Made by a program: the position numbers and the translations under genes. 64,000 nt of DNA from a virus. Lineage: Duplodnaviria > Heunggongvirae > Uroviricota > Caudoviricetes. The stretch lies in IMG/VR virus record IMGVR_UViG_3300029415_000001; one strand, given 5' to 3'. This document shows, in pieces, positions 21,450-59,869 of this stretch. Positions within the stretch are counted from its first letter, which is position 1; each line of letters starts with the position of its first letter. The notes below the pieces were generated by a model, which was not told the DNA's origin, ran no database searches, and worked only from the letters and a program-made list of their open reading frames with translations.

Positions 21450-24400
21450 CTATATTTTTCCGCCTACGCCTTTAAACTTCTCAATAAACGAGACTATTTT
21501 CTGGAAAACTGCCTGTTTTTTCGTTTTATATTGCGGATTCAACGGACTAAGTTTTGGTAATGTTTCGTTTAATTCTGTGCCATTTTCGGTGGCATATTCG
21601 CGTTTTAAAGACGTGCGAATATAGCGTTTTGCTGCATCTTCATTGAGATTTTCTTCTTTTATCAATGCTTCTGCTTCACGTTGCTGTTCGCGTTGAGCAA
21701 ACGTAAAGAATGCGTCAATGATGCTGGCTTTGTCCGGTAAATCATCCAGGTTCGTTTGCTGAATAAAATCGACCACCAGGCCCTCTTTCGCCCGGTTCCC
21801 CAGGCTTGAACGAATTAAGCGTTTGACCTCTTCGATCATTTCGCCCTTACCTTTATTTTGTCTGTTGTGTTCGAAAATCAGTCCAAGGATATAATCCAGG
21901 TTTATTTCCTGAGACTTCAGCAAATCGACCTCAAAAACCACGTCATCCCAGTCAGTGGTTGATTTTTCTTTTTTATCAGCTTCTTTCTCGCGGCGCTGCC
22001 AGTCACGAATATCGTTATAGGCAGAACGATAATCCTGAATCTTGCGTTCAGCAGGGAGACGAATCGTTTGCAATTCAGCGAACTTTTCATCATCCACATA
22101 ATGTTCTTCTTTGAATTTTTCTACCGCAACAGGATCGCTAAGATCGATTTGTTGCAGGGCTTTCAGCGTGGCAAATTCATCATAGTTTTGCAGGATGTTC
22201 TCGGCACGCAGGTATTCACCAAACAGTTTAACGAAGTCTTTCTTCTCTTTTTCACTTTCAATACTGGCAGGGTCAGGGAACCGTTGTTCCAGTTCTGAAA
22301 CTACTGCCATAAAGCCGCGCTTAGCTTCACCAGTGGCAGCATCAGTAAAGCCTTCCATATACTCTGCATAACTCTTTTCTAAAACCACATTTTTGGTGTT
22401 TTTGTCACCAAACAGCGTTATGGCATCAATAGTTGAGCGTTCCAGATCCCGGAAAGTGACGATATTACCGAAGGTTTTAGTTGCATCATAAATACGGTTG
22501 GTGCGGGAAAATGCCTGCATCAAGCCGTGAAAACGCAGGTTTTTATCGACGAATAGCGTGTTCAATGTTGGAGCATCGAAGCCAGTTAAAAACATCCCCA
22601 CGACAATTAACAGATCGATATCCTGATTTTTAACCCGTTGGGCTAAATCGCGATAGTAGTTCTGAAAACCGTTACCGTCGGTGCTGAAGTTAGTTTTAAA
22701 ATAGCTGTTATACTCACGAATTGCAGCGTCAAGAAACTCTTTAGCACTGCTGTCCATTGCGCTGGTATCAAAAGTTTCATCGGAAATTTCACCAATGGCA
22801 TTTTGTTCTTCATTAGCGGCAAAGGAGAAGATTGTCGCAACACGCAGCGGTTTATAAGTTGCAGATTTATTAGCGGCTTCCTCTTGTAACCGTTTAAACG
22901 CCGCGTAATAGGCTTTTGCAGCATCCACGCTGCTCACTGCCAACATAGCATTAAAGCCTTTGGAACCTGGGAAAGTACGGTGGGTCTTCTGGCGGAAGTT
23001 ATTCAGAATATATTGCGTAATTTCCTGTATACGCATGGGATGAAGAAACGCCTGCTGATTTTCAGCCGCACTTAGTTTTTTCTCGTCAGTTTCTGTCTCT
23101 AAAGACTTAAACTGTGGCCGCACATCGTTGTAGTCCACCTTGAATTTGAGCACTTTTTCATCACGAATCGCATCGGTAATTACATACGAATGCAATTCAC
23201 GACCAAATACGCTGGCGGTCGTTTCTGAGCCTAAGGCGTTTTCCGGGAAAATAGGTGTGCCGGTAAAACCAAACTGATAATAGCGTTTGAATTTCTTCTT
23301 CAGGTTTTTCTGCGCTTCTCCAAACTGGCTGCGGTGGCATTCATCAAATATAAACACCACTTGCTGATTATATACAGACAGGTCGCTTTCTGCTTTCATC
23401 AGGTTATTGAGTTTCTGAATAGTAGTGACGATAATTTTGTTATCGTCCTTATCCAGATTTCGTTTAAGGCCTGCGGTATTTTCCGAGCCGTTGACGCTGT
23501 CTGGCGAAAAACGCTGATATTCCTTCATGGTCTGGTAATCGAGGTCTTTCCTGTCGACCACGAAGAAGACTTTATCAATAAAGTCCAGTTCTGTTGCCAG
23601 ACGCGCGGCTTTAAAGCTGGTCAGTGTTTTACCAGAACCGGTAGTGTGCCAGATAAAGCCACCGCTTTCGGGGTTAGACCAGTTTTTCGCTTTATAGGAG
23701 CTGTTGATTTTCCATAAGATTCGTTCGGTGGCGGCAATCTGGTACGGTCGCATCACCAGTAGCGTCTGACTACTGTCAAAAACGCTGTAGTTCACCAGAA
23801 CATTCAGCAGAGTATGTTTCTGGAAAAAGGTAGCGGTAAAGTCTTTGAGGTCTTTAATCAGCGTGTTGTCTGATTTCGCCCAATTCATGGTGAAGTCAAA
23901 ACTGTTTTTATCGCGCTTTGTTGTGTTGGCAAAATAACGGGTATCGGTGCCGTTAGAAATGACAAACAGTTGCAGATACTTAAACAGGGAATTTTCGCTG
24001 TTAAAACTCTCTTTACTGTAACGATGTATCTGGTTGAAAGCCTCACGAATCGCCACCCCGCGTTTTTTTAGTTCGATTTGCACCAGCGGTAAACCATTAA
24101 CCAGGATCGTGACGTCATAACGGTTAGCATGAGAACCCGTCTGTTCAAACTGCTGGATAATCTGCACCTTATTGCGCATGAGATTCTTTTTATCTATCAA
24201 ATAGATGTTCTCAAGTCGCCCGTCGTCAAAAATAAAGTCGCAGATATAGTCGATATGGATTTTACGGGTTTTATCCAGAATACCATCGCTGGGGTTGTCC
24301 AGATACTGCTCCGTGAAGCGCCGCCACTCGCTGTCATTAAACATCACACCATTGAGGCTCTGAAGCTGTTCCCGAACATTAGACAGCATTGCCGACTGTG

Positions 24401-24566
24401 ATTTTACGGAAATAAATTCATAACCCTGATTCCGCAGGTCCTGAATCAGTTCACGTTCCAGGTCCGATTCGCTCTGGTAGCTGTCGCTTGTTTGCTCAGC
24501 TTTGATGTACTTATCAAGGACGATAAAGTTATTGGATTCAGCAATGGTGTGTGTTTGATGAGTCAT
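21450..24566 (-). CDS. hsdR: type I restriction enzyme R subunit (EcoR124-like, type IC)
   Basis: 1038 aa; helicase motifs TGSGKT, FDECH, nuclease-like N-terminal region; length matches EcoR124I HsdR as recalled. Confidence 0.9.
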
Positions 24567-24687
24567 AGCGCATCCTTTGTGCCGCCTGGCAAGAGCCGGA
24601 AGGGCGTTAAGAGTGACTTCCGGCGCGTAAAAAATAGTCTATATACTGACCGGATGTTAAGGTGAGCCGGTCTGTAGCAATGGTCAA

Positions 24688-25940
<1,253 letters not shown>

Positions 25941-25944
<4 letters not shown>

Positions 25945-27503
25945 TTCTGCACCTCGCAGCCTTCAATTTCAGCCACAATCGCATCAATATCTTTGCGCAA
26001 TTGGTCGATTTTGCTGACCGTGGTTTTCAGCTCTGCATTCAACTCAGCGATATCGATAATTTCGCGAGTATCTTTCGCTTCCACATAGCTGCTCACCGAC
26101 AGGTTATAGTCATTAGCGACAACGGTCTCAAACGCGACAGATTTCGCCAGATGAGCAACATCTTCCTTGCTGGCAAATACCTGCATAATCTGGTCGATAT
26201 GGGCATCGGTCAGGATATTGTTGTTAGTCTCTTTTTTGAACAGTTCGCTGGCGTCAATAAACTGAACGTTGGTATCCGTTTTATGTTTAGACAGAACCAG
26301 AATGTTTACGGCAATGGTGGTGCCAAAGAACAGGTTCGGAGCCAGTGAAATCACGGTTTCGACATAGTTATTGTCAACCAGATACTGACGGATTTTCTGC
26401 TCCGCGCCGCCACGGTAAAAAATACCCGGGAAGCAGACAATCGCAGCACGACCTTTGGCCGAAAGATAATTCAGTGCATGTAGTACAAAGGCGAAGTCAG
26501 CTTTTGATTTGGGGGCCAGAACGCCAGCCGGGGCAAAACGCTCATCGTTAATCAGCGTCGGGTCATCGCTGCCAATCCATTTCACCGAATACGGCGGGTT
26601 AGAAACGATGGCATCAAACGGTTTTTCATCTCTGAAGTGCGGTTCAGTCAGCGTATTGCCCAGCTTGATATCAAACTTGTCGTAGTTGATGTTGTGCAAA
26701 AACATGTTCATACGCGCCAGGTTATAGGTCGTATGGTTGATTTCCTGACCAAAAAAACCTTCTTCGATGATATGGTCATCAAACTGTTTTTTCGCCTGCA
26801 ACAACAGCGAACCGGAGCCTGCTGCCGGGTCGTAGATTTTGTTAACGTTGGTCTGCCCGTGCATAGCCAGTTGTGCAATCAGCTTAGAGACGTGCTGCGG
26901 TGTAAAGAACTCGCCGCCGGACTTACCGGCATTCGCCGCATAGTTAGAAATCAGGAACTCATAGGCATCGCCGAACAGGTCAATCTGATGTTCGTGGAAG
27001 TCACCAAGTTTTAGCCCTTCAACCCCTTTCAGAACCGCAGCCAGGCGGGCATTTTTATCTTTAACGGTGTTACCCAGGCGGTTACTGGTAGTATCGAAAT
27101 CAGCAAACAAACCTTTGATGTCAGCTTCTGAAGGGTAACCGTAAGCAGAACTTTCGATAGCAACGAAGATGCTGTTTAAATCCGCATTCAGTCTGTCATT
27201 GGTATTTGCTTTCGCAGCTACGTTGCAGAAAAGCTGACTGGGGTAGATGAAGTAGCCTTTGGTTCTGATGGCATCGTCTTTAATGTCATCAGTAATAATG
27301 CCGTCATCAAGTGCCGCATAACAGATGCTGTCATCACCATTTTCCATATAACTGGAAAAATTTTCGCTGATAAAACGGTAGAAAAGTGCGCCCAGAACGT
27401 ATTGCTTAAAATCCCATCCATCGACAGAACCTCTGACATCGTTAGCAATTTGCCAGATTTGACGATGAAGCTCTGCACGTTGTTGAATACTTGTCATTTT
27501 CAT
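25941..27503 (-). CDS. hsdM: type I restriction-modification methyltransferase subunit
   Basis: 520 aa; N6-adenine MTase motifs [10 protein letters not shown] (motif I) and NPPYS (motif IV); ATGA overlap with hsdS. Confidence 0.9.
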
Positions 27504-32860: not shown

Positions 32861-33397
32861 TGTTTTTTAACTACCGATGTTACATTGAGCCTGACCTCTT
32901 GCGCCTTGAGGCATTTTCGGTTTATGCTTATCAGGCACCTCATTAAAACGGGTGCCGGGATTGGCCTCCCGCTTAAGTCTAAGGCGATACAGACGCCGCT
33001 CGCGTCTTTTTTTTGTATCGGCGTACACGCACACCTCTACAATGGTGGGCTGTATGGGGCTACCTTCGGGTAGGCTGGTTACCTTGGACGCCAGTAAGGC
33101 CAACTCCGTACAGTCCACCGCCAGCAAGATTGGTCTCTTCTGCGGTGGTTACATACCAACGTCTAAGGAGGCTGCCAATATGGCTACTATCCCTACCCCA
33201 ACTCATCCTGAATTTATCTGGCGCTTTTACTCCTGCCAAAAACGTCACTATCACTTCGTTATTGCACCGACAGAAGATGAGGCCCGCTCTCAGCTTCCTG
33301 ACGCCCCATGTATTTTCTCTGCCCGTTTTTCCACTGATTCACGCAATTCTCTCAGTTACTGGTGCCTCCCTGTTAACGCTTCTGCTCAGGAGGGACT

Positions 33398-34516
33398 ATG
33401 AGAACGTCATTAGTCACCCGTGAAGAGATGATCGAGGCAATTGAACAGCACACTGCCTGTATCAGTACCAGGGATATACCAGGCGTTATTGCCAACTACT
33501 TCATGATCACCAAACAACTTTACCGGAGAAAGGACAAGAACGCGGTTCACCGTATCCTGTTGTCTGATATCCGCGAATACCTGCTCGAACAGGGTCATCT
33601 GAATTACGTAACCGCCGCAGCCGAAGCACGCAAGGAGGCACACAGAATGAAAGCAACTAACGTTAAATCAGAAAAAATTCATGCACCTTCAGTTCAAGAA
33701 TCGGAGCTGGTGGTTGTTCAGAATCAGTCTGATGAAATTCCCGTTCTGGAATGGCAGGGAGTGCGTGTAGTGACAACCGAGACTCTTGCTAGAGGGTATG
33801 GGACAGAAACAATCCGTATTCGCCAAAATCATCATGAGAACAAAGTACGCTTTGTTGAAGGGAAGCACTTTTTCAAAGTTGAAGGAGAATCATTGCGCGA
33901 GTTGAAGCACAGAGTAGCTTTAAACTACTCTGTAAAAATTGCTCGCAATGTTCGCTCACTCACCCTCTGGACAGAACGCGGCGCAGCCCGCCACGCTAAA
34001 ATGCTCGAAACCGATCAGGCATGGGCATTCTTTGAAAAACTGGAAGACAGCTACTTCCGACAAAAAGAACAGCAACCGATCGCAATCCCCCAGACGCTTC
34101 CTGAAGCCCTACGCCTGGCTGCCGAACTGGCTGAACAAAAGCAACTTCTGGAACAGAAAGCCCACCAGCTAAATCAGCAGCTGGTGGCCGCCGCTCCTAA
34201 AGTCGATTTTGCCGACCGGGTATCAGTAGCTAAAGGGATCCTGATTGGGAATTTTGCAAAGGTTGTTGGACTTAAACAAAACGCGCTGTTTGTCTGGTTA
34301 CGGGAGAACGGCATCCTGATAGCGTCCGGTGGACGTAAAAATGTGCCGTTCCAGCAGTACATCAACGCGGGGTATTTCACGGTGAAAGAAGTGGTGCTGG
34401 ATGATGAAGATGGCTACCAGATACGGTTGACGCCTCAATTAACGGGTAAAGGCCAGCAGTGGTTGACGCGTAAACTGCTCGATGCTGGCTTGTTAAAACC
34501 GGTGGCGGCTGAATAA
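33398..34516 (+). CDS. phage antirepressor-like protein (KilAC/Ant C-terminal domain type)
   Basis: 372 aa; GGAGG RBS; central PVLEWQGVRVVTTETLARGYG (ORF6N/Bro-N-like) and C-terminal QTLPEALRLAAELAEQKQLLEQKAHQL...DFADR (KilAC-type signature). Confidence 0.6.
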   Translation: MRTSLVTREEMIEAIEQHTACISTRDIPGVIANYFMITKQLYRRKDKNAVHRILLSDIREYLLEQGHLNYVTAAAEARKEAHRMKATNVKSEKIHAPSVQESELVVVQNQSDEIPVLEWQGVRVVTTETLARGYGTETIRIRQNHHENKVRFVEGKHFFKVEGESLRELKHRVALNYSVKIARNVRSLTLWTERGAARHAKMLETDQAWAFFEKLEDSYFRQKEQQPIAIPQTLPEALRLAAELAEQKQLLEQKAHQLNQQLVAAAPKVDFADRVSVAKGILIGNFAKVVGLKQNALFVWLRENGILIASGGRKNVPFQQYINAGYFTVKEVVLDDEDGYQIRLTPQLTGKGQQWLTRKLLDAGLLKPVAAE

Positions 34517-34548
34517 TGGAAGAATGCCCGGTTGATGCCGGGCATAAT

Positions 34549-35400
34549 TTATTGCGCGCTTTCGGGGTTGTCGTTTACTGGCTGCCCCTTCTTGGTTTTA
34601 CGGCTGCGCGTAACTGATGCGGCTGACTTAACCTTTTTCTCTTCGCGAGTGATGGCAATTTGTTTTTTTACATTTTCAATATCTGCCAGGCGATATATTT
34701 TTGCTTGCGGCCAGCGGTCGCAGATGATCGGTTCTATGGAGTCATAAAGGCTAAATTTTGCTTTTTCGAATTCACCGTTGATGATAATTCCATCACGGAG
34801 AGTTTCATCGCAGATAAACACGCCACACAGTGGCACATGGTAACTAACTGATTTACCATCATTGTAGTTAGGGCTACTGGAAATGTAGTGGACGCGCAGC
34901 ATTGTTTCGCTAAAGCCGTGTACGCGCATACGGAATTTTTCATCCTCCGGGTACTGCCTCATTAGCTCTTTTGTTGCTTCCAGGTTCTCTATGTATTTCG
35001 CACTGTGCTCATTGAGCCCCGCGCTTTTTTGGATGCGAATGTCCTTATCAATCAGATGAATAATGCGGCCAGCGGTCATGTTGACGCTGTTCACAGCTTC
35101 TGTCTGATAAGTTGTAACCTTACGTACACCGCGAAGGATGTTAGGCACTGGATATAAAATAGTCTTTGGGATATTGAGGTCTGGGTACTGTTCCAGTTCC
35201 CGCGCCATTAAAGTCCATTTATCAATTTCAGCCTGAATGCTGTCAGTTTCTTTGAACGGTAGAACGACAACCGGGCGTACAGGACGACCGTCGCTGGCTG
35301 TATCAACGTGTTGGGCGCGTGCAACAGCTTTTTTTAGAAAGAGATCCCTGAAGCTGACGAACTCCTGGTACAGTTGTTCGCCGTAGACATAATTTATCAT
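34549..35400 (-). CDS. c1: C1 repressor of lysis (P1 immunity repressor)
   Basis: 283 aa; recognised as P1 C1 from sequence; adjacent coi and multiple operators. Confidence 0.9.
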   Translation of the reverse strand: MINYVYGEQLYQEFVSFRDLFLKKAVARAQHVDTASDGRPVRPVVVLPFKETDSIQAEIDKWTLMARELEQYPDLNIPKTILYPVPNILRGVRKVTTYQTEAVNSVNMTAGRIIHLIDKDIRIQKSAGLNEHSAKYIENLEATKELMRQYPEDEKFRMRVHGFSETMLRVHYISSSPNYNDGKSVSYHVPLCGVFICDETLRDGIIINGEFEKAKFSLYDSIEPIICDRWPQAKIYRLADIENVKKQIAITREEKKVKSAASVTRSRKTKKGQPVNDNPESAQ

Positions 35401-39641: not shown

Positions 39642-40949
39642 ATGAGCGAATATGTTGAGTTAGCATACGCTGCCGCTACAAGCAGGCTTTGTCTATTTAC
39701 CGGGACTGGCTTTTCAAAGGCAGTCTCGAACGGTGAAGCTCCAACGTGGAAGGAACTATTAAAAAAAGTTTGCAGCAAAGTTCACAATGCCAAAAAGTTG
39801 GAAGACACGTTATTCCCTGATGATAAACCACCAGCACTGAGTCTTGAAGAAGCCGCACAAATACTATCTTTGAAGCTCAATATTGAGGGTAAGTCGATTT
39901 ATGATGAAATTGTTGACATCATATCTCCAATTCAACTTGGAGAAGGTATATCAAATATAAAAGACTTTTTCCAAAAAAACTCATTCCGTGTCATTACAAC
40001 AAATTATGACAAATTGGCTGAATGCTTGGTTGGAGATGAGAGAGTTCAGTCTATCACTCCAGGATTACCAGTTCCGAAGTATCGTTCTAATGTGAAAATA
40101 TATCATGTTCATGGCTCTATTGACTCACCAAAAAATATGGTTGTCACTTCTGAAGACTACTTTAGGTTTATAAACTCTAACACTTATTTTTCACGAAAAC
40201 TGAGTACAATGCTGCATGAAAATACAGTTGCGATATTAGGATATTCTTTAAGCGACACAAACCTTAAAGCAATTATAAATGATTACAAAACCTTCTCGAA
40301 AGGTAATGCGCTATGCTCTAATATATTTTTCATTTCTCGCAGCAAAGTAAGCCAAGACATGAAGGATTATTATTTTTATTGTTTTGGGATACGAGTAATT
40401 GATAAAACTGAAATAGATTGTTTCTTTGAGCGTCTGAGTAGTAAAATGGTGTTGATTGAAGACATCATGGCAAGAGCCAGAGAAAGTATAAAAAGAGTTG
40501 TTTCAGGGGCTTTTAACTATAGGGATGAATATCTCAAATTAGAGGATTCTTTTTACCAAATAACATCTTCTATTATGTCGGAAGGTTTCGATTGGAGTGA
40601 CAATAAAGTTGTTGGTTTTTTTAAAAGGCTAATCGAACAAAAAAGAGAATTAACAAGAAAAGATGGGGCGTGGGAACAATATGAGCATCTTGCAAAATGG
40701 CTCATATATTTTGGAAGCATCATAGAAATTACTGACACTAAGTATGAAAATGTATATTTAGAGGCAGTCGAATACTCAATGTCCAATATGAGCAAAGAAA
40801 GGCGGTTAGGTTATTCGTGGCATGCTTATAGAGCTTGGGAAACGCGATGGTCTTCAATCATTGCTTCAAATCGATTAATTATAAAAAAACACATCGAAGA
40901 CCTTGGCGTGCTGGATGACGCCAATTCTATAGTGAAAAATATAGTGTAA
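39642..40949 (+). CDS. SIR2-like (sirtuin-fold, predicted NAD+-binding/NADase) protein with uncharacterised helical C-terminal domain; candidate single-gene anti-phage or abortive-infection effector
   Basis: 435 aa; LCLFTGTGFSKAVSNGEAPTWKELL (SIR2 Rossmann start), VITTNYDKLAE, YHVHGS (candidate catalytic His), VAILGYSLSDTNL; gene is markedly AT-rich relative to both flanks. Confidence 0.75.
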   Translation: MSEYVELAYAAATSRLCLFTGTGFSKAVSNGEAPTWKELLKKVCSKVHNAKKLEDTLFPDDKPPALSLEEAAQILSLKLNIEGKSIYDEIVDIISPIQLGEGISNIKDFFQKNSFRVITTNYDKLAECLVGDERVQSITPGLPVPKYRSNVKIYHVHGSIDSPKNMVVTSEDYFRFINSNTYFSRKLSTMLHENTVAILGYSLSDTNLKAIINDYKTFSKGNALCSNIFFISRSKVSQDMKDYYFYCFGIRVIDKTEIDCFFERLSSKMVLIEDIMARARESIKRVVSGAFNYRDEYLKLEDSFYQITSSIMSEGFDWSDNKVVGFFKRLIEQKRELTRKDGAWEQYEHLAKWLIYFGSIIEITDTKYENVYLEAVEYSMSNMSKERRLGYSWHAYRAWETRWSSIIASNRLIIKKHIEDLGVLDDANSIVKNIV

Positions 40950-51575: not shown

Positions 51576-52133
51576 TTATTCATTGACCAGCCCCGTCAGG
51601 CAAAGCTGGCGTTCATTTTCACGGCGAATCTTTAACCCAGGCAGGGGGACGCCGTTACTGTTCACAAAATCAGGGAGATGGTTACACATATTCACCCATT
51701 CCCCTTTCTGCGCCCACTTGTGGATGGACGTTTCGACTCGCATGCCTCGCGCTTTGCTGTAGTAGGCCCGTAAACTATTGCATCCCATATTGAATGCCGC
51801 GCTTGTCATTGCGCTGAAGGCATTATCGGGCATGTCTTTGCCCCGGAAGTGCTGGTTAATACAGCGTTCAGCGATCAGGATATTCTTTTCCCAATCAGCG
51901 GCGATTTGCTGGTCTGTTTTTCGCACACCCGGCGTTACCCCGTGTGTATTACCGATCCCGTCAGTCCATACCCCTGCCGGGCACATGTATGGATCACGTC
52001 GGCAACCTTCAGCGTTTCCGATAAGCTCAAGCCCCGCCTGGTTGGTTCGCACATTGCCATTACCCATCACGATGGTAATCATCACCGCGATAGCGCAAAT
52101 TGCACCGCCTCCTGCGGCTGTTTTTCCCTTCAT
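51576..52133 (-). CDS. lyz: SAR-endolysin (T4-lysozyme-like muramidase with N-terminal signal-arrest-release helix)
   Basis: 185 aa from ATG 52133 (GAGG RBS); N-term MKGKTAAGGGAICAIAVMITIVMG SAR segment; ORF track start at 52478 is an upstream extension. Confidence 0.8.
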   Translation of the reverse strand: MKGKTAAGGGAICAIAVMITIVMGNGNVRTNQAGLELIGNAEGCRRDPYMCPAGVWTDGIGNTHGVTPGVRKTDQQIAADWEKNILIAERCINQHFRGKDMPDNAFSAMTSAAFNMGCNSLRAYYSKARGMRVETSIHKWAQKGEWVNMCNHLPDFVNSNGVPLPGLKIRRENERQLCLTGLVNE

Positions 52134-52266
52134 AAAGACCTCATAAGCGAATTTTTTACGCTCCAGGACAAACACCCATTCACAGCCATTACCGACTGAC
52201 TCGATCCCTTTAGAAGGCACAGGATAATGCAAATCACTTGTTAGCCACGTTTCAAAGATATACATT

Positions 52267-52283
52267 ATTGCTCTAATTAATTT
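52267..52283 (+). promoter_or_regulatory. C1 operator (ATTGCTCTAATTAATTT) upstream of ssb
   Basis: 15/17 consensus match. Confidence 0.6.
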
Positions 52284-52302
52284 ATTTTGTTGGGTAAGAA
52301 AA

Positions 52303-52791
52303 GTGGCACAACGCGGTGTAAACAAAGTCATCCTGATTGGTACCCTGGGACAAGACCCAGATATCAGGTATATACCAAATGGCGGAGCAGTCGGAAGACT
52401 CAGCATCGCAACGAATGAATCATGGCGCGACAAGCAAACAGGCAAACAGAAAGAGCAAACAGAATGGCATAAAGTCATTTTGTTCGGAAAAATTGCTGAA
52501 ATTACGAGTGAATATTTACGAAAAGGTTCTCAGGTCTACATCGAAGGGAAACTTAAAACCCGTAAGTGGACAGATGATGCCGGTGTAGAACGTTACACGA
52601 CGGAAATTATCGTCAGCCAGGGCGGCACTATGCAAATGATCGGCGCTCGCCGCGACGATTCACAATTCTCAAATGGCTGGGGGCAGTCAAACCAACCTCA
52701 AAACCACCAGCAATACAGCGGTGGCGGTAAACCTCAGAGCAACGCCAATAGCGAACCTCCAATGGACTTTGAAGACGATATTCCATTTTGA
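52303..52791 (+). CDS. ssb: single-stranded DNA-binding protein
   Basis: 162 aa; OB-fold N-terminus [19 protein letters not shown], Gly/Gln-rich linker, acidic tail DFEDDIPF. Confidence 0.95.
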
Positions 52792-52842
52792 GAGGGCTGA
52801 AAGTTGCTCGATTACTTAAAAATAACTTTACCTAATTGGTGT

Positions 52843-52870
52843 AAAAAAATGGGCGCAACAAAGCGCCCCA
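52843..52870 (-). terminator. rho-independent terminator of the porin gene
   Basis: Minus strand GGGGCGCTTTGTTGCGCCC followed by ATTTTTTT. Confidence 0.6.
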
Positions 52871-54015
52871 ACAATAGAGTTTCAAATTAATAAAAAGGTA
52901 ATAAATAACATGAAGTTAAATTGAGAAGAGGCAATTTTATTGCCTCTTCAAAGGTGGCATGAGGGTGCCACCTATATGCGGGCAGTGACATCACTCCCTT
53001 CCCGCATATTCTTACCTACCAAAATTAGAATTGGTAGGTCATACCAACAGCAACGATGTTGTCGGTTGCAACGCCAGATTTTTTGGTAAAATCACTTTCA
53101 TCGATCAGGTTGATCTTATAGTCAACGAAAGTGGACATATTCTTGTTAAAGTAATAAGTCGCGCCCACGTCGATGTATTCAACCAGATCCTGGTTACCGA
53201 ACGCACCAATATTTTCACCGCGAGAGTGTAGGTAAGCGATGGACGGACGCAGGCCGAAATCAAACTGGTATTGAGCAACGGCTTCAAAGTTTTTCGCCTT
53301 GTTCGCGATATGGTCATCACCGAAGACTGTCATATTCTGAGTTTCAGAATAAGTTGTAGCCAGGTAAATGTTGTTTGCATCATATTTCAGGCCCGTAGCC
53401 CATACTTCAGCAGTTTTACCAGAGGCATTCAGAGGGCTGGCTTTAGCATAGGATACCTGTCCATCAGTACGGTCAGATTTTGCATAGGTTGCAGCAACGC
53501 CAAATCCTTCATAATCGTAAGTAGCTGACAGACCAAAGCCATCACCATTAGATTCAACTTCGTCGCGGCCTTTCCAGTTGTTCACTTTTGCAGCACTATC
53601 ATTTTTACCTTGATACTGCAAAGCAAAGTTCAGACCATCAACCAAGCCGAAGAAATTATTGTTACGATAGGTCGCGACGCCAGTAGCACGCTGGGTCATA
53701 AATACATCAGTCTGAGTCCAGGTATCTCCACCAAACTCCGGCAGCACGTCAGTCCAAGCGCCAACATCATAAGCTACACCGTAGTTGCGACCATAGTCGA
53801 GCGAACCATAATCGCCAAAGCGAAGCCCTGCAAACGCAAGACGAGTTTTATCTTTATCAGAACCTTCAGTTTCAGAACGGTTACCTTTAAATTCGTACTC
53901 CCACTGACCAAAACCGGTTAACTGGTCATTAATCTGAGTTTCACCTTTGAAACCCATACGAGCATAAGTTTTATCCCCGTCATCACTAGCCGAAGAAGAG
54001 AAGTAATGCTCTGCA

Positions 54016-55344
54016 CTGATGAATCCCCTAATGATTTTGGTAAAAATCATTAAGTTAAGGTGGATACACATCTTGTCATATGATCAAATGGTTTCGCGAA
54101 AAATCAATAATCAGACAACAAGATGTGCGAACTCGATATTTTACACGACTCTCTTTACCAATTCTGCCCCGAATTACACTTAAAACGACTCAACAGCTTA
54201 ACGTTGGCTTGCCACGCATTACTTGACTGTAAAACTCTCACTCTTACCGAACTTGGCCGTAACCTGCCAACCAAAGCGAGAACAAAACATAACATCAAAC
54301 GAATCGACCGATTGTTAGGTAATCGTCACCTCCACAAAGAGCGACTCGCTGTATACCGTTGGCATGCTAGCTTTATCTGTTCGGGCAATACGATGCCCAT
54401 TGTACTTGTTGACTGGTCTGATATTCGTGAGCAAAAACGACTTATGGTATTGCGAGCTTCAGTCGCACTACACGGTCGTTCTGTTACTCTTTATGAGAAA
54501 GCGTTCCCGCTTTCAGAGCAATGTTCAAAGAAAGCTCATGACCAATTTCTAGCCGACCTTGCGAGCATTCTACCGAGTAACACCACACCGCTCATTGTCA
54601 GTGATGCTGGCTTTAAAGTGCCATGGTATAAATCCGTTGAGAAGCTGGGTTGGTACTGGTTAAGTCGAGTAAGAGGAAAAGTACAATATGCAGACCTAGG
54701 AGCGGAAAACTGGAAACCTATCAGCAACTTACATGATATGTCATCTAGTCACTCAAAGACTTTAGGCTATAAGAGGCTGACTAAAAGCAATCCAATCTCA
54801 TGCCAAATTCTATTGTATAAATCTCGCTCTAAAGGCCGAAAAAATCAGCGCTCGACACGGACTCATTGTCACCACCCGTCACCTAAAATCTACTCAGCGT
54901 CGGCAAAGGAGCCATGGGTTCTAGCAACTAACTTACCTGTTGAAATTCGAACACCCAAACAACTTGTTAATATCTATTCGAAGCGAATGCAGATTGAAGA
55001 AACCTTCCGAGACTTGAAAAGTCCTGCCTACGGACTAGGCCTACGCCATAGCCGAACGAGCAGCTCAGAGCGTTTTGATATCATGCTGCTAATCGCCCTG
55101 ATGCTTCAACTAACATGTTGGCTTGCGGGCGTTCATGCTCAGAAACAAGGTTGGGACAAGCACTTCCAGGCTAACACAGTCAGAAATCGAAACGTACTCT
55201 CAACAGTTCGCTTAGGCATGGAAGTTTTGCGGCATTCTGGCTACACAATAACAAGGGAAGACTTACTCGTGGCTGCAACCCTACTAGCTCAAAATTTATT
55301 CACACATGGTTACGCTTTGGGGAAATTATGAGGGGATCTCTCAG
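54016..55344 (+). mobile_element. IS10 (1329 bp) with 9-bp target-site duplication TGCTCTGCA
   Basis: Ends CTGATGAATCCCCTAATGATTTTGG and GGGGAAATTATGAGGGGATCTCTCAG; TSD at 54007..54015 and 55345..55353. Confidence 0.95.
54123..55331 (+). CDS. IS10 transposase
   Basis: 402 aa; MCELDILHDSLYQFCPELHLKRLNSLTLACHALLD... recognised as IS10/Tn10 transposase. Confidence 0.95.
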   Translation: MCELDILHDSLYQFCPELHLKRLNSLTLACHALLDCKTLTLTELGRNLPTKARTKHNIKRIDRLLGNRHLHKERLAVYRWHASFICSGNTMPIVLVDWSDIREQKRLMVLRASVALHGRSVTLYEKAFPLSEQCSKKAHDQFLADLASILPSNTTPLIVSDAGFKVPWYKSVEKLGWYWLSRVRGKVQYADLGAENWKPISNLHDMSSSHSKTLGYKRLTKSNPISCQILLYKSRSKGRKNQRSTRTHCHHPSPKIYSASAKEPWVLATNLPVEIRTPKQLVNIYSKRMQIEETFRDLKSPAYGLGLRHSRTSSSERFDIMLLIALMLQLTCWLAGVHAQKQGWDKHFQANTVRNRNVLSTVRLGMEVLRHSGYTITREDLLVAATLLAQNLFTHGYALGKL

Positions 55345-55711
55345 TGCTCTGCATTAACTTTGCCGTACAGATCCAGTTTGTTACCGTCTTTGTTATAGAT
55401 TTCTGCCGCTTGTGCAGACATTGCCATCAGAACAGATGCTGCAACCGTAGAAAGTGCCACTGTAATTTTTTTCATTTTTTTTCCTTTAGATTGAACTTTT
55501 CAACAGAAAAGAAGTCACTTAGGGGAGATGTTTATCTTTTTTTGATTTACATTTCAAGTTTTTTAAATAAATATCGAGATATTTTCGTGATCAGGATCAC
55601 AAAAACACCATTGCAAACCAATTAATTATTAGGATGGTATTAATAATATAGAGTAAAAAATAACACTAAGGCCAAATCGCAACCAGAAACAACAGCGCAG
55701 TATAAAACACG

Positions 55712-56480
55712 GGTAGTGCATCCAATTAGTAGAACATGTGTTTTTCGATAAACGCTCCGATCACTTTTTCGTGGATCTCAACTGAGCGTGAGAAGCAGAT
55801 TGTTTTTTACGAGCCAACTGCTTAATGCGGGTGCGTAGCGTCAGATTATTACGCTCAATGCGTTGGGTGAATATTTTGCCGGTCAGATGCTTATTCTTCG
55901 CCCCCCCCCCGGCCATAGCTGCCCCTGTCATCGCTGGTGAGCATGCCGATGTTGAAGGGTGTAAGCAGTGCCAGTAGCTCCCGGCACGCTTGATCGGTTC
56001 GGGGACCAAAAGTGTAGGCCAGTACACCGCCTGTTTTGGTGTTGTACGCGTACCAGAGCCAGTGTTGCCGGGCTTTACTGCCAACGTAGCTCCATTGCTC
56101 ATCAAGCTCGCAGATAAGCGCCACATCAGCATGGGCAACAGGAGAAGAAGTTATTCGCGTTGGCGCGAGTTTTTTAAAGTCCGGATGACGGTGCTAATAC
56201 CAATTTTCAGTGTCCTGGCGGTATCGCGAACCCCGGCACCATTAAAGGCCATTTCAGTGATCAGCTCTTTCATACCCGGCTTACGTGCTTGATAAGTATA
56301 AGTGAGCTGAAACACACGGTGGCAGTCACGGCAGCGAAATCTGTCACGGCCTTTAGGGTTCTGACCATGGCGGTAAACCCGAGCTAACTGACAACGGGGA
56401 CAATGAATATTAACGCTGGCTATGAGATAACCTCAAAAGCCCATATTATACATCAGATTCAACTAATTAGAGGCATCACC
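55712..56480 (-). mobile_element. IS1-family insertion sequence (divergent isoform), insA/insB region with a C10 homopolymer
   Basis: Imperfect terminal IRs GGTAGTGCATCCAATTAGTAGAA and GGTGATGCCTCTAATTAGTTGAA; InsA-like and InsB-like translations on minus strand; InsB frame broken near C10 tract at 55901..55910; no canonical ATG for insA. Confidence 0.75.
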
Positions 56481-56580
56481 AGAAATGGCTTGCTTCCATA
56501 GCCTAAAGCAAGCCACAACACATTTACCTTAAGTACACAATTAACATACCAGAACAGATTATTTTTGCACAATCAGGGAG

Positions 56581-56892
56581 TTAATATACGATCTGGTCTA
56601 CATGATCACCAAAATCATCATCGTCGTCGTCATCATCGCCACCATCTACTGCTGGCCAATCAACAAACCAGCCAGCGTAAAGATGCAGCGTTCGGAGAAC
56701 ATCACTTGCGGGAGCATCAAGGGTGTTAACGAATCCCATATAGCTATTGGGATTTGCCCCAGCTATGGCTTCAGCGATCATGTCCTCGGTAATGTCACCG
56801 GAGATAATGCTTAAACGCTCGGAAACTTCTTCATTATCATCAAATTCGATAATGGCATTTCCGCCTAATGGCGCTGCGATTTTAATCTGCAT
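56581..56892 (-). CDS. small acidic protein (position of P1 hxr)
   Basis: 103 aa; poly-Asp run GGDDDDDDDDFGD. Confidence 0.45.
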   Translation of the reverse strand: MQIKIAAPLGGNAIIEFDDNEEVSERLSIISGDITEDMIAEAIAGANPNSYMGFVNTLDAPASDVLRTLHLYAGWFVDWPAVDGGDDDDDDDDFGDHVDQIVY

Positions 56893-59869
56893 TATTTAGC
56901 TCCTTTGCCACACCTAATAACAGTTCCAGCAATCCGTCACCATTCATCAGTGATGCGGCAGCGGCCTCTTTGTCATGATACAACTGAAGAGCCATAGAGA
57001 ATACTTCCGTTGCTGACGTTTTGGAAATAGTCGGTGATTTCTGCCGAATTTTCCCTGAGTTACTCACTGAGACTGGCGGGTATACCTTCGCCATATAAAT
57101 ATTACTCAATCGAGATCTGAAGCACCATTCAGGCTTGCCACGCCCACCTATATTGACGAAAGATGGCTTATCCCCTTCAACATTGGCCTTCAGGAATGAC
57201 CGGGCTTTCTCTAACAAACCAGGGTTACTGTACTCAAGATGATGACCCAGCTCGTGCCACAGTGCACTTGCATTTTCATCGTTCAAATTGACAGCAACAA
57301 CACCATTTAGATTTGCATATGCCCTTCCCTGGTGGTGAACCACTTTTGATAAGGTCGATATTTTCCCGCCGGTCAGGCGATAAATATCAGCAAGTTCCTT
57401 GCGCAGGTCTATCCCACCATTCTGTCCAGCGCGGGCTTCTTCCACTTCTTCCGTGATAAAAGAGTCGGCCCACTCAAGAGCTTTTTCTTCAGATACGGAT
57501 GAGTTTGCGATCGCACTGTTCATGGCAGATAACACTTTCTCGTGGACCGAACCCATACTTCGCTGATTCATTTGCCAGCGTGTCTGCGGGTTATATGAGA
57601 ATCGCTTAAGTAGTTGGTCAAGCTGCTCAAGTTCTTCTTCACTGACATACTTTTTAGCCTCACCAATAATGCCAGGGAGAATATTGCCGTTAGGATTAAA
57701 CGCTCGCGAAAGGAAGAGTTTCAGCGCCCCCATGCCCTCCGATGCTTCAATATCACCAATAACCCGGTTAACAATGGCCGCACTCTTCGGATTAGCATCC
57801 GCCAACGCTCTGGCTACGATTTGCAGGGACGATACGACCTCACGCTGCATATCAGTCCTGATCTCATCAATAAACTCTGGCGTTATGCCGTGCTCTTTAA
57901 GGATATCCCGGCCTTCCGCCGTTACCCCATCGATATCACCGACATGTTTATTAACCCGACTTTGCAATGCCTTAAATGCCTTCAGAATTCCACGGGCATC
58001 ATCCGCTTTACTAACGGCCTTCCTGAATGCTGTCAAGAAGTCTGAGTTAACCTCATTTTGTTGATCGGCCCACTGAATGGAGGCATCTTTCATCTCGTCC
58101 AGAGTCAGATCACCCAACGCGGTATGGTCTGTGAATATGAGCGACAACCTCTGAACCATTTCTGCCAATGGTGATGCCGAATGCGCCGCGCTAAGGAATG
58201 CTTTCACCCTGGTTGGGCGAATGGAAAACCAGTCAATAGCTGGTGGCATATCTCCGTTTTTTATCGCCTGCGCTATCTCGTCAAAGCCATCGCGCCCAAG
58301 GGAGGATGCGTGATTTAACAAGCCGCGAAGTAACGAATTGCTGATACCGAATAATCGGCACCATTTTTTCACGTCGGCAACAGGCATTCGAACAAAATGC
58401 GCAAGCACTTGTACAAGCTGTTCATCCTGGGGATCTTTACGGGAAAGCAGCCTGATCAGATGAATAATGTCTTTGATGCCGGATGCCCGATGTAATAGCA
58501 AACTGGTATATGGAGCAACACCGTTGTAACTACCGCCGGAAACGGACTCGAAAAGACCGCCGGATATCCCTTGCATGCCTTCGTTTTCCAGTTCCTGAGA
58601 CACCTGGCGAAGGATATCCTGTAACGACACATCACCACCGCCAAACATATCCCCCAGCGCCTGGCACTGGTGCTGTAACTCATCATTGATACGTTGAGCC
58701 ATCAATTTAAAGGCGGTGGCCATACGCTTCGCGCTACGGTTATTCGCGACGATGAACAACGCGAGAGCTTTCACTTCCGGGGCTGTTTCGCTGAACATAT
58801 CCCCCTGAGCAATAACATCGGTAATATGTTGGCCTGACTCCTTCGATTGTCTTACCAGGTCTACCGCATCTTTCAATGCCGCCAGCGCCTTTTTATCGAG
58901 GCTATCCGCTGTCTCAATGCCATCAACAATAGTTGTCACAGCCTGCTTGTGCGCTTCTCCTGATAAAGCCTGCATCTGGACAAAATCATTGGCTGCCGCA
59001 TTAAGCGCCGTCAGAACATTACGCATATCCGGATCAGGTTCTTCTGCAACCATCCTTACCAGGCGCGCATCCTTATATGCCTTGGCAAATATCGCGTTTT
59101 GTATACGGTCAACAAGTTGCCGTGTTGGTCGCCCATCTTCAGTTACAAGGCCAGCCGCCTGTGTGGCACCAACTTGCGTCATAAATCCGCGAATAAACGC
59201 GTCATTACTGCGGCTAAGCAGATCTCCGCTTTCTGACGGGTTAAACAACGCCATCATCGCCGGAGTTATGTTGTCGGTATCAACAAAAGCCTTTTCACTG
59301 GCTGCCATTTCCTGAAGATCAGAAATATTTGAGTCCTTGGCAAACTGAACGCGGTCAACCTTCGTTAACCGGCGGCGCACCAGTACCGGAGCCGTCATTG
59401 ATTCAACCTTTTCAGGTCGTATGCCGAATTCGGTCGCATGATCAATCAGGTACTCACGATACCGATCCGCATTGCCGTCCTGATAGGCTTTGATGATCCC
59501 CATGGTCCGTCCATTACCTGACTCAACAGCATTGTCCTCACCAATTATCGGCGCGCCATGGCTGGATAAACCGGAATCAGTAAGCTGAGCAGGCCGCAAA
59601 TCTTTGGATATCTGGTTAACTTGAAGAAGGCTGGATGCGCGGGTCCGGTCGCGCGGCTGAAGTTCCTGGGGATAGTCAGGATTAATTTTCCCATCCAGAG
59701 TATTGGATACCAAAAGAGCTGAGGCATCGACGATATCAAACGCTGTTTTTACCTCGTCTCCCTTCGCTGTCACCACATACGAAACCCGCCCATAATCGGG
59801 CAGGTTCTTAAGCAGCTCGATCAGCGTTTCTATGCTGGTGGCCATTACCACCTGATCGCTTAAGCTCAT
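56882..59869 (-). CDS. large darA-operon protein (position/size of P1 DdrB)
   Basis: 995 aa; C-terminal HELGHHLE zincin-like motif; synteny. Confidence 0.5.
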   Translation of the reverse strand: MSLSDQVVMATSIETLIELLKNLPDYGRVSYVVTAKGDEVKTAFDIVDASALLVSNTLDGKINPDYPQELQPRDRTRASSLLQVNQISKDLRPAQLTDSGLSSHGAPIIGEDNAVESGNGRTMGIIKAYQDGNADRYREYLIDHATEFGIRPEKVESMTAPVLVRRRLTKVDRVQFAKDSNISDLQEMAASEKAFVDTDNITPAMMALFNPSESGDLLSRSNDAFIRGFMTQVGATQAAGLVTEDGRPTRQLVDRIQNAIFAKAYKDARLVRMVAEEPDPDMRNVLTALNAAANDFVQMQALSGEAHKQAVTTIVDGIETADSLDKKALAALKDAVDLVRQSKESGQHITDVIAQGDMFSETAPEVKALALFIVANNRSAKRMATAFKLMAQRINDELQHQCQALGDMFGGGDVSLQDILRQVSQELENEGMQGISGGLFESVSGGSYNGVAPYTSLLLHRASGIKDIIHLIRLLSRKDPQDEQLVQVLAHFVRMPVADVKKWCRLFGISNSLLRGLLNHASSLGRDGFDEIAQAIKNGDMPPAIDWFSIRPTRVKAFLSAAHSASPLAEMVQRLSLIFTDHTALGDLTLDEMKDASIQWADQQNEVNSDFLTAFRKAVSKADDARGILKAFKALQSRVNKHVGDIDGVTAEGRDILKEHGITPEFIDEIRTDMQREVVSSLQIVARALADANPKSAAIVNRVIGDIEASEGMGALKLFLSRAFNPNGNILPGIIGEAKKYVSEEELEQLDQLLKRFSYNPQTRWQMNQRSMGSVHEKVLSAMNSAIANSSVSEEKALEWADSFITEEVEEARAGQNGGIDLRKELADIYRLTGGKISTLSKVVHHQGRAYANLNGVVAVNLNDENASALWHELGHHLEYSNPGLLEKARSFLKANVEGDKPSFVNIGGRGKPEWCFRSRLSNIYMAKVYPPVSVSNSGKIRQKSPTISKTSATEVFSMALQLYHDKEAAAASLMNGDGLLELLLGVAKELNNAD

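What the first reader, a model, noticed from the sequence alone, without database searches (positions are those of the whole stretch)
53025..55475. Phage-plasmid-borne OmpC-like porin gene inactivated by IS10
A complete general-porin gene (signal peptide, [17 protein letters not shown] mature N-terminus, ...MTYQF C-terminus, own terminator) sits between ssb and the IS1-family element. It is split by IS10 with a perfect 9-bp target duplication TGCTCTGCA, which matches the symmetric IS10 hotspot pattern. An intact gene would be a lysogenic-conversion porin altering host permeability or phage receptor display; the insertion may have been selected to relieve its cost.
Basis: seen in the sequence. 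Interest (0 to 1): 0.5.

Follow-up and report, generated by a model that had tools for sequence, protein, structure and literature searches.

The report
IS10-split P7-type phage porin gene
A P1/P7-family phage-plasmid carries the known P7 porin gene nmpC, recently knocked out by an IS10 insertion at a site IS10 hits repeatedly; the same disruption is already published for a sister plasmid, so the finding is real but ordinary.

Summary
A porin gene on the minus strand (ATG at 55475, stop at 53025-53027) is split inside codon 44 by a complete 1329-bp IS10 (54016-55344). The IS10 is flanked by a perfect 9-bp duplication, TGCTCTGCA. Removing the IS and one repeat restores an uninterrupted 370-aa precursor.

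The gene is not a new OmpC. It is the nmpC gene of phage P7 (96.5% aa), in the same ssb-nmpC-odaA/hxr-ddrB position. It is 79-82% identical to lambdoid Lc/NmpC and 57-61% to OmpC, PhoE, OmpN and OmpF. More than 100 P1-like plasmids carry it, mostly intact. One (pRHB16-C13_3) matches the IS-free locus at 99.86%, so the knock-out is recent.

"P7 nmpC interrupted by IS10, DR TGCTCTGCA" was published in 2019 for pSvP1, where the IS lies in the opposite orientation. IS10 also occupies the homologous codon-44 site (TGCTTAGCA, a perfect consensus) of chromosomal lambdoid nmpC in 14 complete E. coli genomes, in both orientations. Target preference therefore explains the event, and selection for porin loss is untested.

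Extra finding: the porin's 3' UTR is a structured homologue of the DLP12 interval that I take to be IpeX. The claimed hotspot match is 5 of 6 bases, not perfect.

The parts
55345..55475 (-). Porin (P7-type nmpC) 5' fragment: start codon, 23-aa signal peptide and mature residues 1-21. Codon 44 is completed by the IS10 end and followed at once by TGA.
   Evidence: ORF 55341..55475; reconstruction; P7 sig_peptide annotation of 69 nt.
53025..54015 (-). Porin 3' fragment (codon 42 onward, to ...MTYQF and TAA). It is in frame with a chance ATG inside IS10 (ORF 53025..54071), which would give a product without a signal peptide.
   Evidence: 99.9% nt identity to the intact ompC/nmpC of pRHB16-C13_3.
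54016..55344 (+). Complete IS10 (annotated ISVsa5 in RefSeq), 1329 bp. The outside end is at 54016 and the inside end at 55344.
   Evidence: length, inverted repeats; identical (0 mismatches) to the IS10 copy in the 88COLEC chromosome; it is the only copy in the window.
54123..55331 (+). IS10 transposase CDS, 402 aa, intact.
   Evidence: NCBIfam NF033591 IS4-family transposase, 404 bits.
54061..54130 (-). RNA-OUT / pOUT transcript. It is transcribed towards the outside end, so in this orientation it points into the porin 3' fragment.
   Evidence: Rfam RF00240, 98.8 bits, E 2e-19. pOUT reads outward into adjacent DNA according to PMC2744996.
54007..54015 (.). Target-site duplication, copy 1: TGCTCTGCA.
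55345..55353 (.). Target-site duplication, copy 2: TGCTCTGCA.
52843..53024 (-). Structured porin 3' UTR, homologous to the DLP12 nmpC-quuD intergenic region (IpeX-like). It ends in an intrinsic terminator at 52851-52868.
   Evidence: Alignment A2; 12 compensatory base pairs; MFE -66.9 kcal/mol, z = -6.0; terminator scan; sub-threshold Rfam GcvB hit of 30.5 bits.
55521..55601 (-). Inferred porin promoter region: a CRP-like site TGTGATCCTGATCACG (55586-55601), -35 TTGAAA (55552-55557) and -10 TAAACA (55529-55534). It aligns with the CRP site annotated upstream of PA-2 lc.
   Evidence: Alignment A3; PA-2 CRP annotation. Promoter assignment is inference only.
55712..56480 (-). Degenerate IS1-family element upstream of the porin promoter. 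It is neighbouring context, not part of the porin::IS10 event.
   Evidence: Pfam DDE_Tnp_IS1 and HTH_Tnp_IS1; sequence; also present in pRHB16-C13_3.
52303..52791 (+). ssb, the flanking backbone gene, convergent with the porin.
   Evidence: Pfam SSB; P7 synteny.

Best explanation
The window is part of a P1/P7-family (Punavirus) phage-plasmid. At its variable ssb-hxr/odaA cargo locus it carries the P7-type nmpC module.

The module is a self-contained unit homologous to the lambdoid lc/nmpC module. It comprises a CRP-type promoter region, a general-porin CDS, and a structured IpeX-like 3' UTR with a terminator.

An active IS10 transposed by cut-and-paste into a near-consensus target (TGCTCTGCA) inside codon 44, duplicating the 9 bp. 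The result is a null porin allele: the 5' part encodes only the signal peptide plus 21 residues, and the 3' part has no signal peptide.

The event is recent. The rest of the gene is undamaged and differs by 1 nt from an intact allele.

The site is a recurrent IS10 target, so the insertion needs no selective explanation.

Shown here: the anatomy, the homology, the recurrence and the recency.
Inferred: loss of porin production; polarity on the 3'-UTR RNA; possible low-level read-through from pOUT; reversibility by precise excision between the 9-bp repeats.
For: Anatomy:
- Exact IS10 anatomy and target duplication.
- In-silico excision restores a 370-aa ORF.

Identity of the porin:
- 97.2% nt and 96.5% aa to P7 nmpC, with identical synteny.
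- NCBIfam OmpC-subfamily score of 532 bits, above the 484 cut-off.
- 113 PLSDB plasmids carry the gene.

Recency and independence:
- The IS-free locus is 99.86% identical over 4163 bp to pRHB16-C13_3, which has the intact gene.
- Its CDS differs from the window's by 1 nt.
- dN/dS among P7-type alleles is 0.09-0.31, indicating purifying selection on the gene family.
- The same site and repeat carry IS10 in the opposite orientation in pSvP1 and p204A1-114K.
- pEC21Z048-103K has the same orientation as the window, but on a different backbone and with an IS10 differing at 7 nt.

Recurrence on chromosomes:
- Chromosomal lambdoid nmpC carries IS10 at the homologous site in 7 records in one orientation and 7 in the other. 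The two copies inspected (88COLEC, WI2) have the repeat TGCTTAGCA.

Published precedents:
- PMC6906374: 'IS10 ... [quoted passage not shown]
- PMC10044804: IS10R in K-12 nmpC at codon 44.
Against: - No expression data, so loss of porin and the fate of the 3'-UTR RNA are inferred.
- The target has one mismatch to GCTNAGC. Meanwhile 17 perfect consensus sites in the same 64 kb are unoccupied. Target preference alone may therefore not fully explain three independent hits. Flanking-sequence context, or survivorship because nmpC is dispensable, may contribute.
- The plasmid replicon (repA/parAB) is not inside the window. 'Phage-plasmid' status rests on homology to P7 and on IncY-typed relatives.
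Confidence: 0.88

Rival explanations
1. Adaptive knock-out. The IS10 allele rose because losing the plasmid porin (and perhaps its 3'-UTR RNA) benefits the host, for example through lower antibiotic or bile permeability, or loss of a receptor for phages or colicins.
For: - There are at least three independent hits at a one-mismatch site, while 17 perfect consensus sites in the window are empty.
- Several chromosomal nmpC::IS10 carriers are clinical or multidrug-resistant isolates, for example 88COLEC with mcr-1 next to the locus.
Against: - Only 3 of about 113 PLSDB plasmids with the gene carry IS10 at this site.
- About 116 complete E. coli genomes (100 places on plasmids, 41 on chromosomes) have the intact P7-type site.
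- dN/dS of 0.09-0.31 shows that the gene is normally maintained.
- The same insertion arose in a laboratory K-12 strain whose nmpC was already dead from IS5, where no porin-related benefit is possible.
- No phenotype data exist.
Confidence: 0.2
2. Functional uncoupling. In this orientation pOUT of IS10 reads into the porin 3' fragment. The IpeX-like 3'-UTR RNA would then still be made constitutively while the porin is lost, leaving an element that represses host OmpC/OmpF without supplying a replacement porin.
For: - RNA-OUT/pOUT is on the minus strand and points at the 3' fragment.
- pOUT is documented to drive adjacent genes (PMC2744996).
- The 3' UTR is intact and strongly structured.
- IpeX is reported to be made as part of the porin transcript (PMC12197685).
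Against: - There is no orientation bias across events: 8 records have the window's orientation and 7 the opposite in complete genomes, plus 2 opposite in PLSDB.
- About 1 kb of untranslated, signal-less ORF lies between pOUT and the 3' UTR, so Rho-dependent polarity is likely.
- No RNA data exist.
Confidence: 0.12
3. The IS10 arrived by homologous recombination or gene conversion from a chromosomal nmpC::IS10 allele, not by transposition into the plasmid.
For: - Chromosomal nmpC::IS10 alleles at the homologous position exist.
- The IS10 in 88COLEC is identical to the window copy.
Against: - Both repeat copies are the plasmid-type TGCTCTGCA, not the chromosomal TGCTTAGCA.
- The flanks are 99.86% identical to the intact plasmid allele right up to the IS.
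- The flanks are only 74-78% identical to lambdoid nmpC, which is too divergent for efficient RecA exchange.
Confidence: 0.03
4. Assembly artefact or chimera: an IS10 copy was mis-placed into the porin, or a chromosomal porin was mis-joined to the plasmid.
For: None found.
Against: - The IS is full length, with a perfect 9-bp duplication and an exact in-frame restoration.
- Synteny matches P7 and more than 100 plasmids.
- The same junction occurs in the independently finished plasmid pEC21Z048-103K.
Confidence: 0.02

Closest known systems
nmpC of phage P7 (AF503408, 'NmpC precursor'), and its IS10-interrupted copy in plasmid pSvP1 (MN510446; Venturini et al. 2019, PMC6906374)
   Same: - Same gene: 97.2% nt and 96.5% aa identity.
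- Same locus, between ssb and odaA/hxr.
- In pSvP1, the same insertion site and the same 9-bp repeat, TGCTCTGCA.
   Different: - The window's IS10 is in the opposite orientation to that of pSvP1 and p204A1-114K.
- The window's backbone is the pRHB16-C13_3 type, with an IS1-family element upstream.
- It is therefore an independent event in a different lineage.
Lambdoid phage porins: Lc of PA-2 (J02580) and NmpC of the DLP12 cryptic prophage, with the IpeX 3' RNA
   Same: - The whole module is homologous: promoter region with an aligned CRP site, CDS (79-82% aa), and a structured 3' UTR plus terminator.
- Like K-12 and phage 434 nmpC (IS5 after codon 346), the gene is silenced by an IS.
- IS10 hits the homologous codon 44 in 14 chromosomal copies.
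   Different: - The carrier is a P1-type phage-plasmid, not an integrated lambdoid prophage between Q and the lysis genes.
- The target site has one mismatch (TGCTCTGCA against TGCTTAGCA).
- The 3' UTR has an extra 18-nt segment and many compensated stem changes.
Chromosomal general porins OmpC, PhoE, OmpN and OmpF of E. coli K-12
   Same: - Same family, with a full-length match.
- Shared features: signal peptide, AE(I/V)YNKDGNK N-terminus, PEFGG loop-3 motif, C-terminal Phe.
- PDB matches at E about 1e-134.
   Different: - Only 60.5%, 61.0%, 60.9% and 57.3% aa identity respectively.
- None of these four genes contains a GCTNAGC site anywhere in its coding sequence.
IS10 / IS10R of Tn10 (IS4 family; ISVsa5 in RefSeq naming)
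   Same: 1329 bp, 402-aa transposase, RNA-OUT, 9-bp duplication, and preference for GCTNAGC-like targets.
   Different: Nothing notable. It is a solitary IS10 with no Tn10 in the window.

Membership tests
General bacterial porin, OmpC subfamily (NmpC/Lc clade) | Whole-protein match to the curated family model, above its cut-off | tested here: met
   NCBIfam NF007841 'porin OmpC' subfamily: 532.3 bits against a cut-off of 484. The PhoE and OmpF equivalog models fall below their cut-offs.
General bacterial porin, OmpC subfamily (NmpC/Lc clade) | Sec signal peptide, conserved mature N-terminus, loop-3 PEFGG motif and C-terminal aromatic residue | tested here: met
   Reconstructed sequence: MKK...AQA|[10 protein letters not shown]..., LPEFGGDTW...MTYQF. 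P7 annotates a 23-aa signal peptide.
General bacterial porin, OmpC subfamily (NmpC/Lc clade) | 16-stranded trimeric beta-barrel with channel activity | not tested
   No structure was predicted. There are full-length sequence matches to solved OmpK37, OmpC and PhoE at E 1e-130 to 1e-137. Activity is not testable here.
General bacterial porin, OmpC subfamily (NmpC/Lc clade) | Closest to phage NmpC/Lc rather than to chromosomal OmpC | tested here: met
   Identity is 96.5% to P7 NmpC, 82.5% to ev099, 81% to K-12 NmpC and 79.2% to Lc. It is 57-61% to OmpC, PhoE, OmpN and OmpF.
IS10 (IS4 family) | 1329-bp element with imperfect terminal inverted repeats and a 402-aa DDE transposase | tested here: met
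   It differs at 0-7 nt from IS10 copies in five public records.
IS10 (IS4 family) | Antisense RNA-OUT at the outside end | tested here: met
   Rfam RF00240: 98.8 bits against a gathering score of 41.
IS10 (IS4 family) | 9-bp target-site duplication | tested here: met
   TGCTCTGCA on both sides.
IS10 (IS4 family) | Target resembling the symmetric consensus NGCTNAGCN (a preference, not a requirement) | tested here: inconclusive
   GCTCTGC matches 5 of 6 specified bases. The homologous lambdoid site, GCTTAGC, matches 6 of 6. The consensus is taken from PMC10044804 and PMC2744996.
P1/P7-type phage-plasmid (Punavirus) | Collinear backbone homology to P1/P7 phage genes | tested here: met
   48,657 of 64,000 bases align to P7 at 95-98%. 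Aligned regions include darB, proA/B, lyz, ssb, ddrB/prt, darA, lyd, pacAB, cre and tRNAs. There is a C4 RNA hit and a ddrB-ParB domain.
P1/P7-type phage-plasmid (Punavirus) | IncY plasmid replicon (repA, oriR, parAB) | not testable with these tools
   The window starts at the equivalent of P7 position 66230, just past oriR (65242-65483), so the replicon lies outside it. The near-identical relative pRHB16-C13_3 is typed IncY and is circular.
IpeX-type porin 3'-UTR small RNA | Lies immediately 3' of a phage porin stop codon and ends at an intrinsic terminator | tested here: met
   The interval is 53024-52843 on the minus strand, with the terminator at 52851-52868.
IpeX-type porin 3'-UTR small RNA | Sequence and structure homology to the DLP12 nmpC-quuD intergenic region | tested here: met
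   It aligns with K-12, PA-2 and other lambdoid copies (A2). Of 51 predicted pairs, 12 are compensated. Caveats: only two lineages are compared; the ipeX coordinates are taken from memory, because the RefSeq table does not annotate it; and no ipeX match was returned by the Rfam searches.
IpeX-type porin 3'-UTR small RNA | Represses OmpC/OmpF production | not testable with these tools
   This needs experiment.

The most novel reading that the evidence does not exclude
Codon 44 of phage-borne nmpC/lc genes is a conserved IS10 landing pad. It would work as a recurrent, in principle reversible, off-switch for a porin + IpeX-like RNA conversion module shared by lambdoid prophages and P1-type phage-plasmids.

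In the window's orientation, pOUT would keep the OmpC/OmpF-repressing 3'-UTR RNA on while the replacement porin is off. That would give a low-permeability host state that could be favoured under antibiotic or phage pressure.
Probability: 0.08. Interest if true: 0.45.

Novelty: already known. Interest (0 to 1): 0.15.

Why it matters
The finding matters little on its own. It is one more copy of a documented accessory porin gene of P7-like phage-plasmids, silenced by a documented IS10 event.

Three by-products are modestly useful:
- IS10 has hit the same codon of nmpC-family genes many times, on plasmids and chromosomes and in both orientations. Annotators should read such pseudogenes as hotspot insertions, not as shared ancestry.
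- P1-type phage-plasmids carry the complete lambdoid-type porin module, including a structured IpeX-like 3' UTR. These widespread plasmids may therefore modulate host OmpC/OmpF, which is relevant to antibiotic permeability and phage receptors.
- Near-isogenic natural pairs exist (the pRHB16-C13_3 type intact, this window disrupted), which would make that idea easy to test.

Tried and rejected
- **Orientation bias, as a sign of selection for pOUT read-through.** Rejected. Complete genomes hold 8 records in the window's orientation and 7 in the opposite one, plus 2 opposite in PLSDB.
- **Import of the IS by recombination from chromosomal nmpC::IS10.** Rejected on the repeat sequence and flank identity.
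- **Chimera or artefact.** Rejected on synteny.
- **Rfam naming of the 3' UTR.** There is only a sub-threshold GcvB hit (30.5 bits against a gathering score of 42). It lacks the G/U-rich R1 region, so I treat it as generic hairpin-plus-terminator resemblance, not as GcvB.
- **Canonical IS1 inverted-repeat search.** It found nothing at up to 3 mismatches. The element is a diverged IS1-family member identified through Pfam instead.
- **Literature.** The IpeX primary paper (PMC1347279) is not held, so IpeX facts come from reviews and from memory. Searches for functional work on P7 NmpC or PA-2 Lc found nothing usable.
- **Source record.** The window's exact source was not found. The only same-orientation junction among plasmid records (PLSDB and complete E. 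coli genomes) is pEC21Z048-103K, which has a different backbone.
- **Scripted dN/dS.** My script missed the lambdoid CDSs in the dN/dS table because their N-terminus reads YNKDSNK. Protein identities were obtained separately.
Full report
**1. What is in the sequence**

The porin reads on the minus strand. It starts at ATG 55475 and encodes [23 protein letters not shown]|[21 protein letters not shown]. It then runs into the inside end of an insertion sequence, which supplies an immediate TGA (ORF 55341..55475).

The gene resumes at 54015 and continues to ...MTYQF-TAA at 53025.

Between the two parts lies a 1329-bp element (54016-55344) with these features:
- imperfect terminal inverted repeats;
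- an intact 402-aa transposase on the plus strand (54123-55331; NCBIfam IS4-family transposase, 404 bits);
- a full-length Rfam RNA-OUT match (54061-54130, minus strand, 98.8 bits).

It is flanked by a perfect 9-bp direct repeat, TGCTCTGCA (54007-54015 and 55345-55353). This is IS10.

Deleting the IS and one repeat copy gives a continuous 1113-nt ORF of 370 codons, with no other lesion. The break lies within codon 44.

**2. What the porin is**

It is not a novel OmpC. The reconstructed gene is 97.2% (nt) and 96.5% (aa) identical to nmpC of phage P7 (AF503408, annotated 'NmpC precursor'). It is 94.6% (aa) identical to the porin of the P1-like phage JL22.

Identities to other porins:

| Comparator | aa identity |
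|---|---|
| Lambdoid porins (ev099, K-12 DLP12 NmpC, PA-2 Lc) | 79-82% |
| K-12 OmpC | 60.5% |
| K-12 PhoE | 61.0% |
| K-12 OmpN | 60.9% |
| K-12 OmpF | 57.3% |

It passes the NCBIfam OmpC-subfamily cut-off (532 against 484 bits) but not the PhoE or OmpF equivalog cut-offs. It also matches solved porins full length at E about 1e-134.

In P7 the gene sits exactly where it sits here: darA - odaC - prt/ddrB - odaA/hxr - nmpC - ssb - lyz - proB/A - darB. Phage P1 carries isaA-IS1-isaB at this locus instead. This is the 'RD-2' variable region of Venturini et al. 2019.

Overall, 48.7 of the 64 kb align to P7 at 95-98%, and a C4 antisense RNA is present. The plasmid replicon falls just outside the window. 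The closest relative, however, is a circular IncY plasmid. The 'chromosomal chimera' refutation test therefore fails, and the porin is genuine phage-plasmid cargo.

**3. How common is the gene, and how recent is the lesion**

- 113 PLSDB plasmids carry the gene.
- About 116 complete E. coli genomes (100 places on plasmids, 41 on chromosomes) have the uninterrupted P7-type site.
- Among P7-type alleles, dN/dS is 0.09-0.31, so the gene is normally maintained by purifying selection.
- With IS10 removed, window 52000-57500 is 99.86% identical over 4163 bp to pRHB16-C13_3 (CP057733). That plasmid has the intact gene and the same upstream IS1-family element.
- The two coding sequences differ by a single nucleotide.

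The knock-out is therefore recent.

**4. Already published, and recurrent**

Venturini et al. (Sci Rep 2019, PMC6906374) describe in pSvP1: 'IS10 ... [quoted passage not shown]

I compared the junctions directly.
- pSvP1 and p204A1-114K have IS10 at the same site, with the same repeat, but in the opposite orientation.
- pEC21Z048-103K has the window's orientation. It sits on a backbone that lacks the IS1-family segment and is about 97% identical, and its IS10 differs at 7 positions.

Hence there have been at least three independent insertions at this one 9-bp site in P7-type nmpC.

The homologous site in lambdoid nmpC (quuD-nmpC-essD context) also carries IS10:
- in 7 complete chromosomes in the window's orientation;
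- in 7 in the opposite orientation.

In the two copies whose junctions I inspected (88COLEC and WI2), that site and its duplication read TGCTTAGCA.

These include the laboratory K-12 strain BM28, for which 'nmpC, I, codon 44/346' is published (PMC10044804). K-12 nmpC was already dead from IS5, so that hit cannot have been selected for porin loss.

The lambdoid site is a perfect match to the IS10 consensus GCTNAGC (consensus quoted). The P7-type site matches 5 of 6 specified bases. OmpC, OmpF, PhoE and OmpN contain no GCTNAGC site anywhere in their coding sequences.

**5. Interpretation**

The simplest reading is cut-and-paste transposition of IS10 into a strongly preferred target within a dispensable accessory gene.

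The 'selected to relieve its cost' idea is not excluded. One point favours it: 17 perfect consensus sites in the same 64 kb are empty, while a one-mismatch site (one of 269) was hit repeatedly. However, flanking-context effects and survivorship would produce the same pattern, because insertions into phage or plasmid genes that matter are lost. Only 3 of about 113 plasmid copies are affected.

Import by recombination from a chromosomal nmpC::IS10 is rejected for two reasons:
- both repeat copies are the plasmid type, and the flanks are plasmid type right up to the IS;
- identity to lambdoid nmpC is only 74-78%.

**6. Beyond the given coordinates: the whole module**

Nucleotide homology to lambdoid lc/nmpC extends beyond the CDS.

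*Upstream.* A CRP-like site, TGTGATCCTGATCACG (55586-55601), aligns with the CRP site annotated upstream of PA-2 lc. It is followed by a conserved TTGAAA (-35) and TAAACA (-10). The promoter assignment is inference.

*Downstream.* The 182 nt from the stop codon to a strong intrinsic terminator (52851-52868) have these properties:
- they fold far better than shuffles (-66.9 kcal/mol, z = -6.0);
- they align with the K-12 nmpC-quuD intergenic region and its PA-2 and lambdoid counterparts;
- 12 of 51 predicted pairs keep pairing through double changes.

From my own knowledge, that K-12 interval is where the 167-nt IpeX RNA maps. Reviews state that IpeX is made from the phage porin promoter as part of the porin transcript, and that it lowers OmpC production. 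The primary paper was not available, and the RefSeq table does not annotate ipeX.

So the P7-type cargo appears to be a complete porin + IpeX-like module.

The IS10 insertion should be polar on the 3' UTR. In this orientation, though, pOUT (same strand as RNA-OUT) points into the 3' fragment, and pOUT is known to drive adjacent genes. Residual expression of the 3'-UTR RNA is therefore possible. The lack of orientation bias across events gives no hint that this is selected.

**7. Verdict**

The feature is real, correctly described and correctly interpreted in outline. It is a known gene (P7 nmpC) inactivated by a known kind of event. That event was published with the identical target duplication for a sister plasmid, at a site IS10 hits again and again.

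- Novelty: already known.
- Interest: low.
- The only mildly new points are the documented recurrence at codon 44 across plasmids and prophages, and the IpeX-like 3' UTR on P1-type phage-plasmids.

Noticed in passing
window 52843-53024 (minus strand): The porin 3' UTR is a strongly structured RNA (z = -6) ending in an intrinsic terminator. It is homologous, with compensatory stem changes, to the DLP12 nmpC-quuD (IpeX) interval. P1/P7-type plasmids therefore seem to carry an IpeX-like RNA. Rfam gives only a sub-threshold GcvB hit of 30.5 bits.
   Followed up: partly
window 55586-55601, and 55529-55557 (minus strand): A near-consensus CRP site, TGTGATCCTGATCACG, lies about 118 nt upstream of the porin ATG. 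It aligns with the CRP site annotated upstream of PA-2 lc and is followed by conserved -35/-10-like hexamers. This suggests catabolite control of the P7-type porin.
   Followed up: partly
window 55712-56480: A 769-bp IS1-family element with diverged inverted repeats and no flanking direct repeat. It appears defective: the insA start reads ATA, and insB is broken at a G10 run (55901-55910). Together with about 80 bp of extra sequence, it replaces 483 bp present in P7. The same element is in pRHB16-C13_3.
   Followed up: partly
L004 (E. coli 88COLEC chromosome) 2633-7193: A chromosomal lambdoid nmpC::IS10 at the homologous codon has an ISApl1-PAP2-mcr-1.1 unit inserted immediately upstream of the porin start. 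Two mobile-element events sit side by side at this prophage locus.
   Followed up: no
window 21450-27503: A complete type I restriction-modification system (hsdR 1038 aa, hsdS 418 aa, hsdM 520 aa) replaces about 8 kb of the P7 backbone. This is the RD-5 region of Venturini et al.
   Followed up: partly
window 39642-40949: A 435-aa SIR2-like-domain protein (Pfam SIR2_2) occupies the locus where P1/P7 carry their type III res/mod genes. It is a candidate anti-phage defence gene at the known defence hotspot.
   Followed up: no
window 32935-35400: Between pacB and the 283-aa c1-like ORF (34549-35400, minus strand) lie isrK-like and C4 antisense RNA hits (32935-33125), followed by a 372-aa ORF6N/ANT antirepressor (33398-34516). 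An immI-like c4/ant module thus sits next to c1, unlike the P7 layout.
   Followed up: no
one search hits H125 and H126 (E. coli SCEC020001 and FXCREC035 chromosomes): The P7-type porin site is found at 99% identity on chromosomes. This suggests integrated P1-like elements, or transfer of the porin module to the chromosome.
   Followed up: no
window 53025-54071 (minus strand): An ATG inside the IS10 outside end is by chance in frame with the porin 3' fragment. It gives a 348-aa ORF (19 IS-derived residues plus porin from Ala42) with no signal peptide. It has no obvious Shine-Dalgarno sequence and is probably meaningless.
   Followed up: partly
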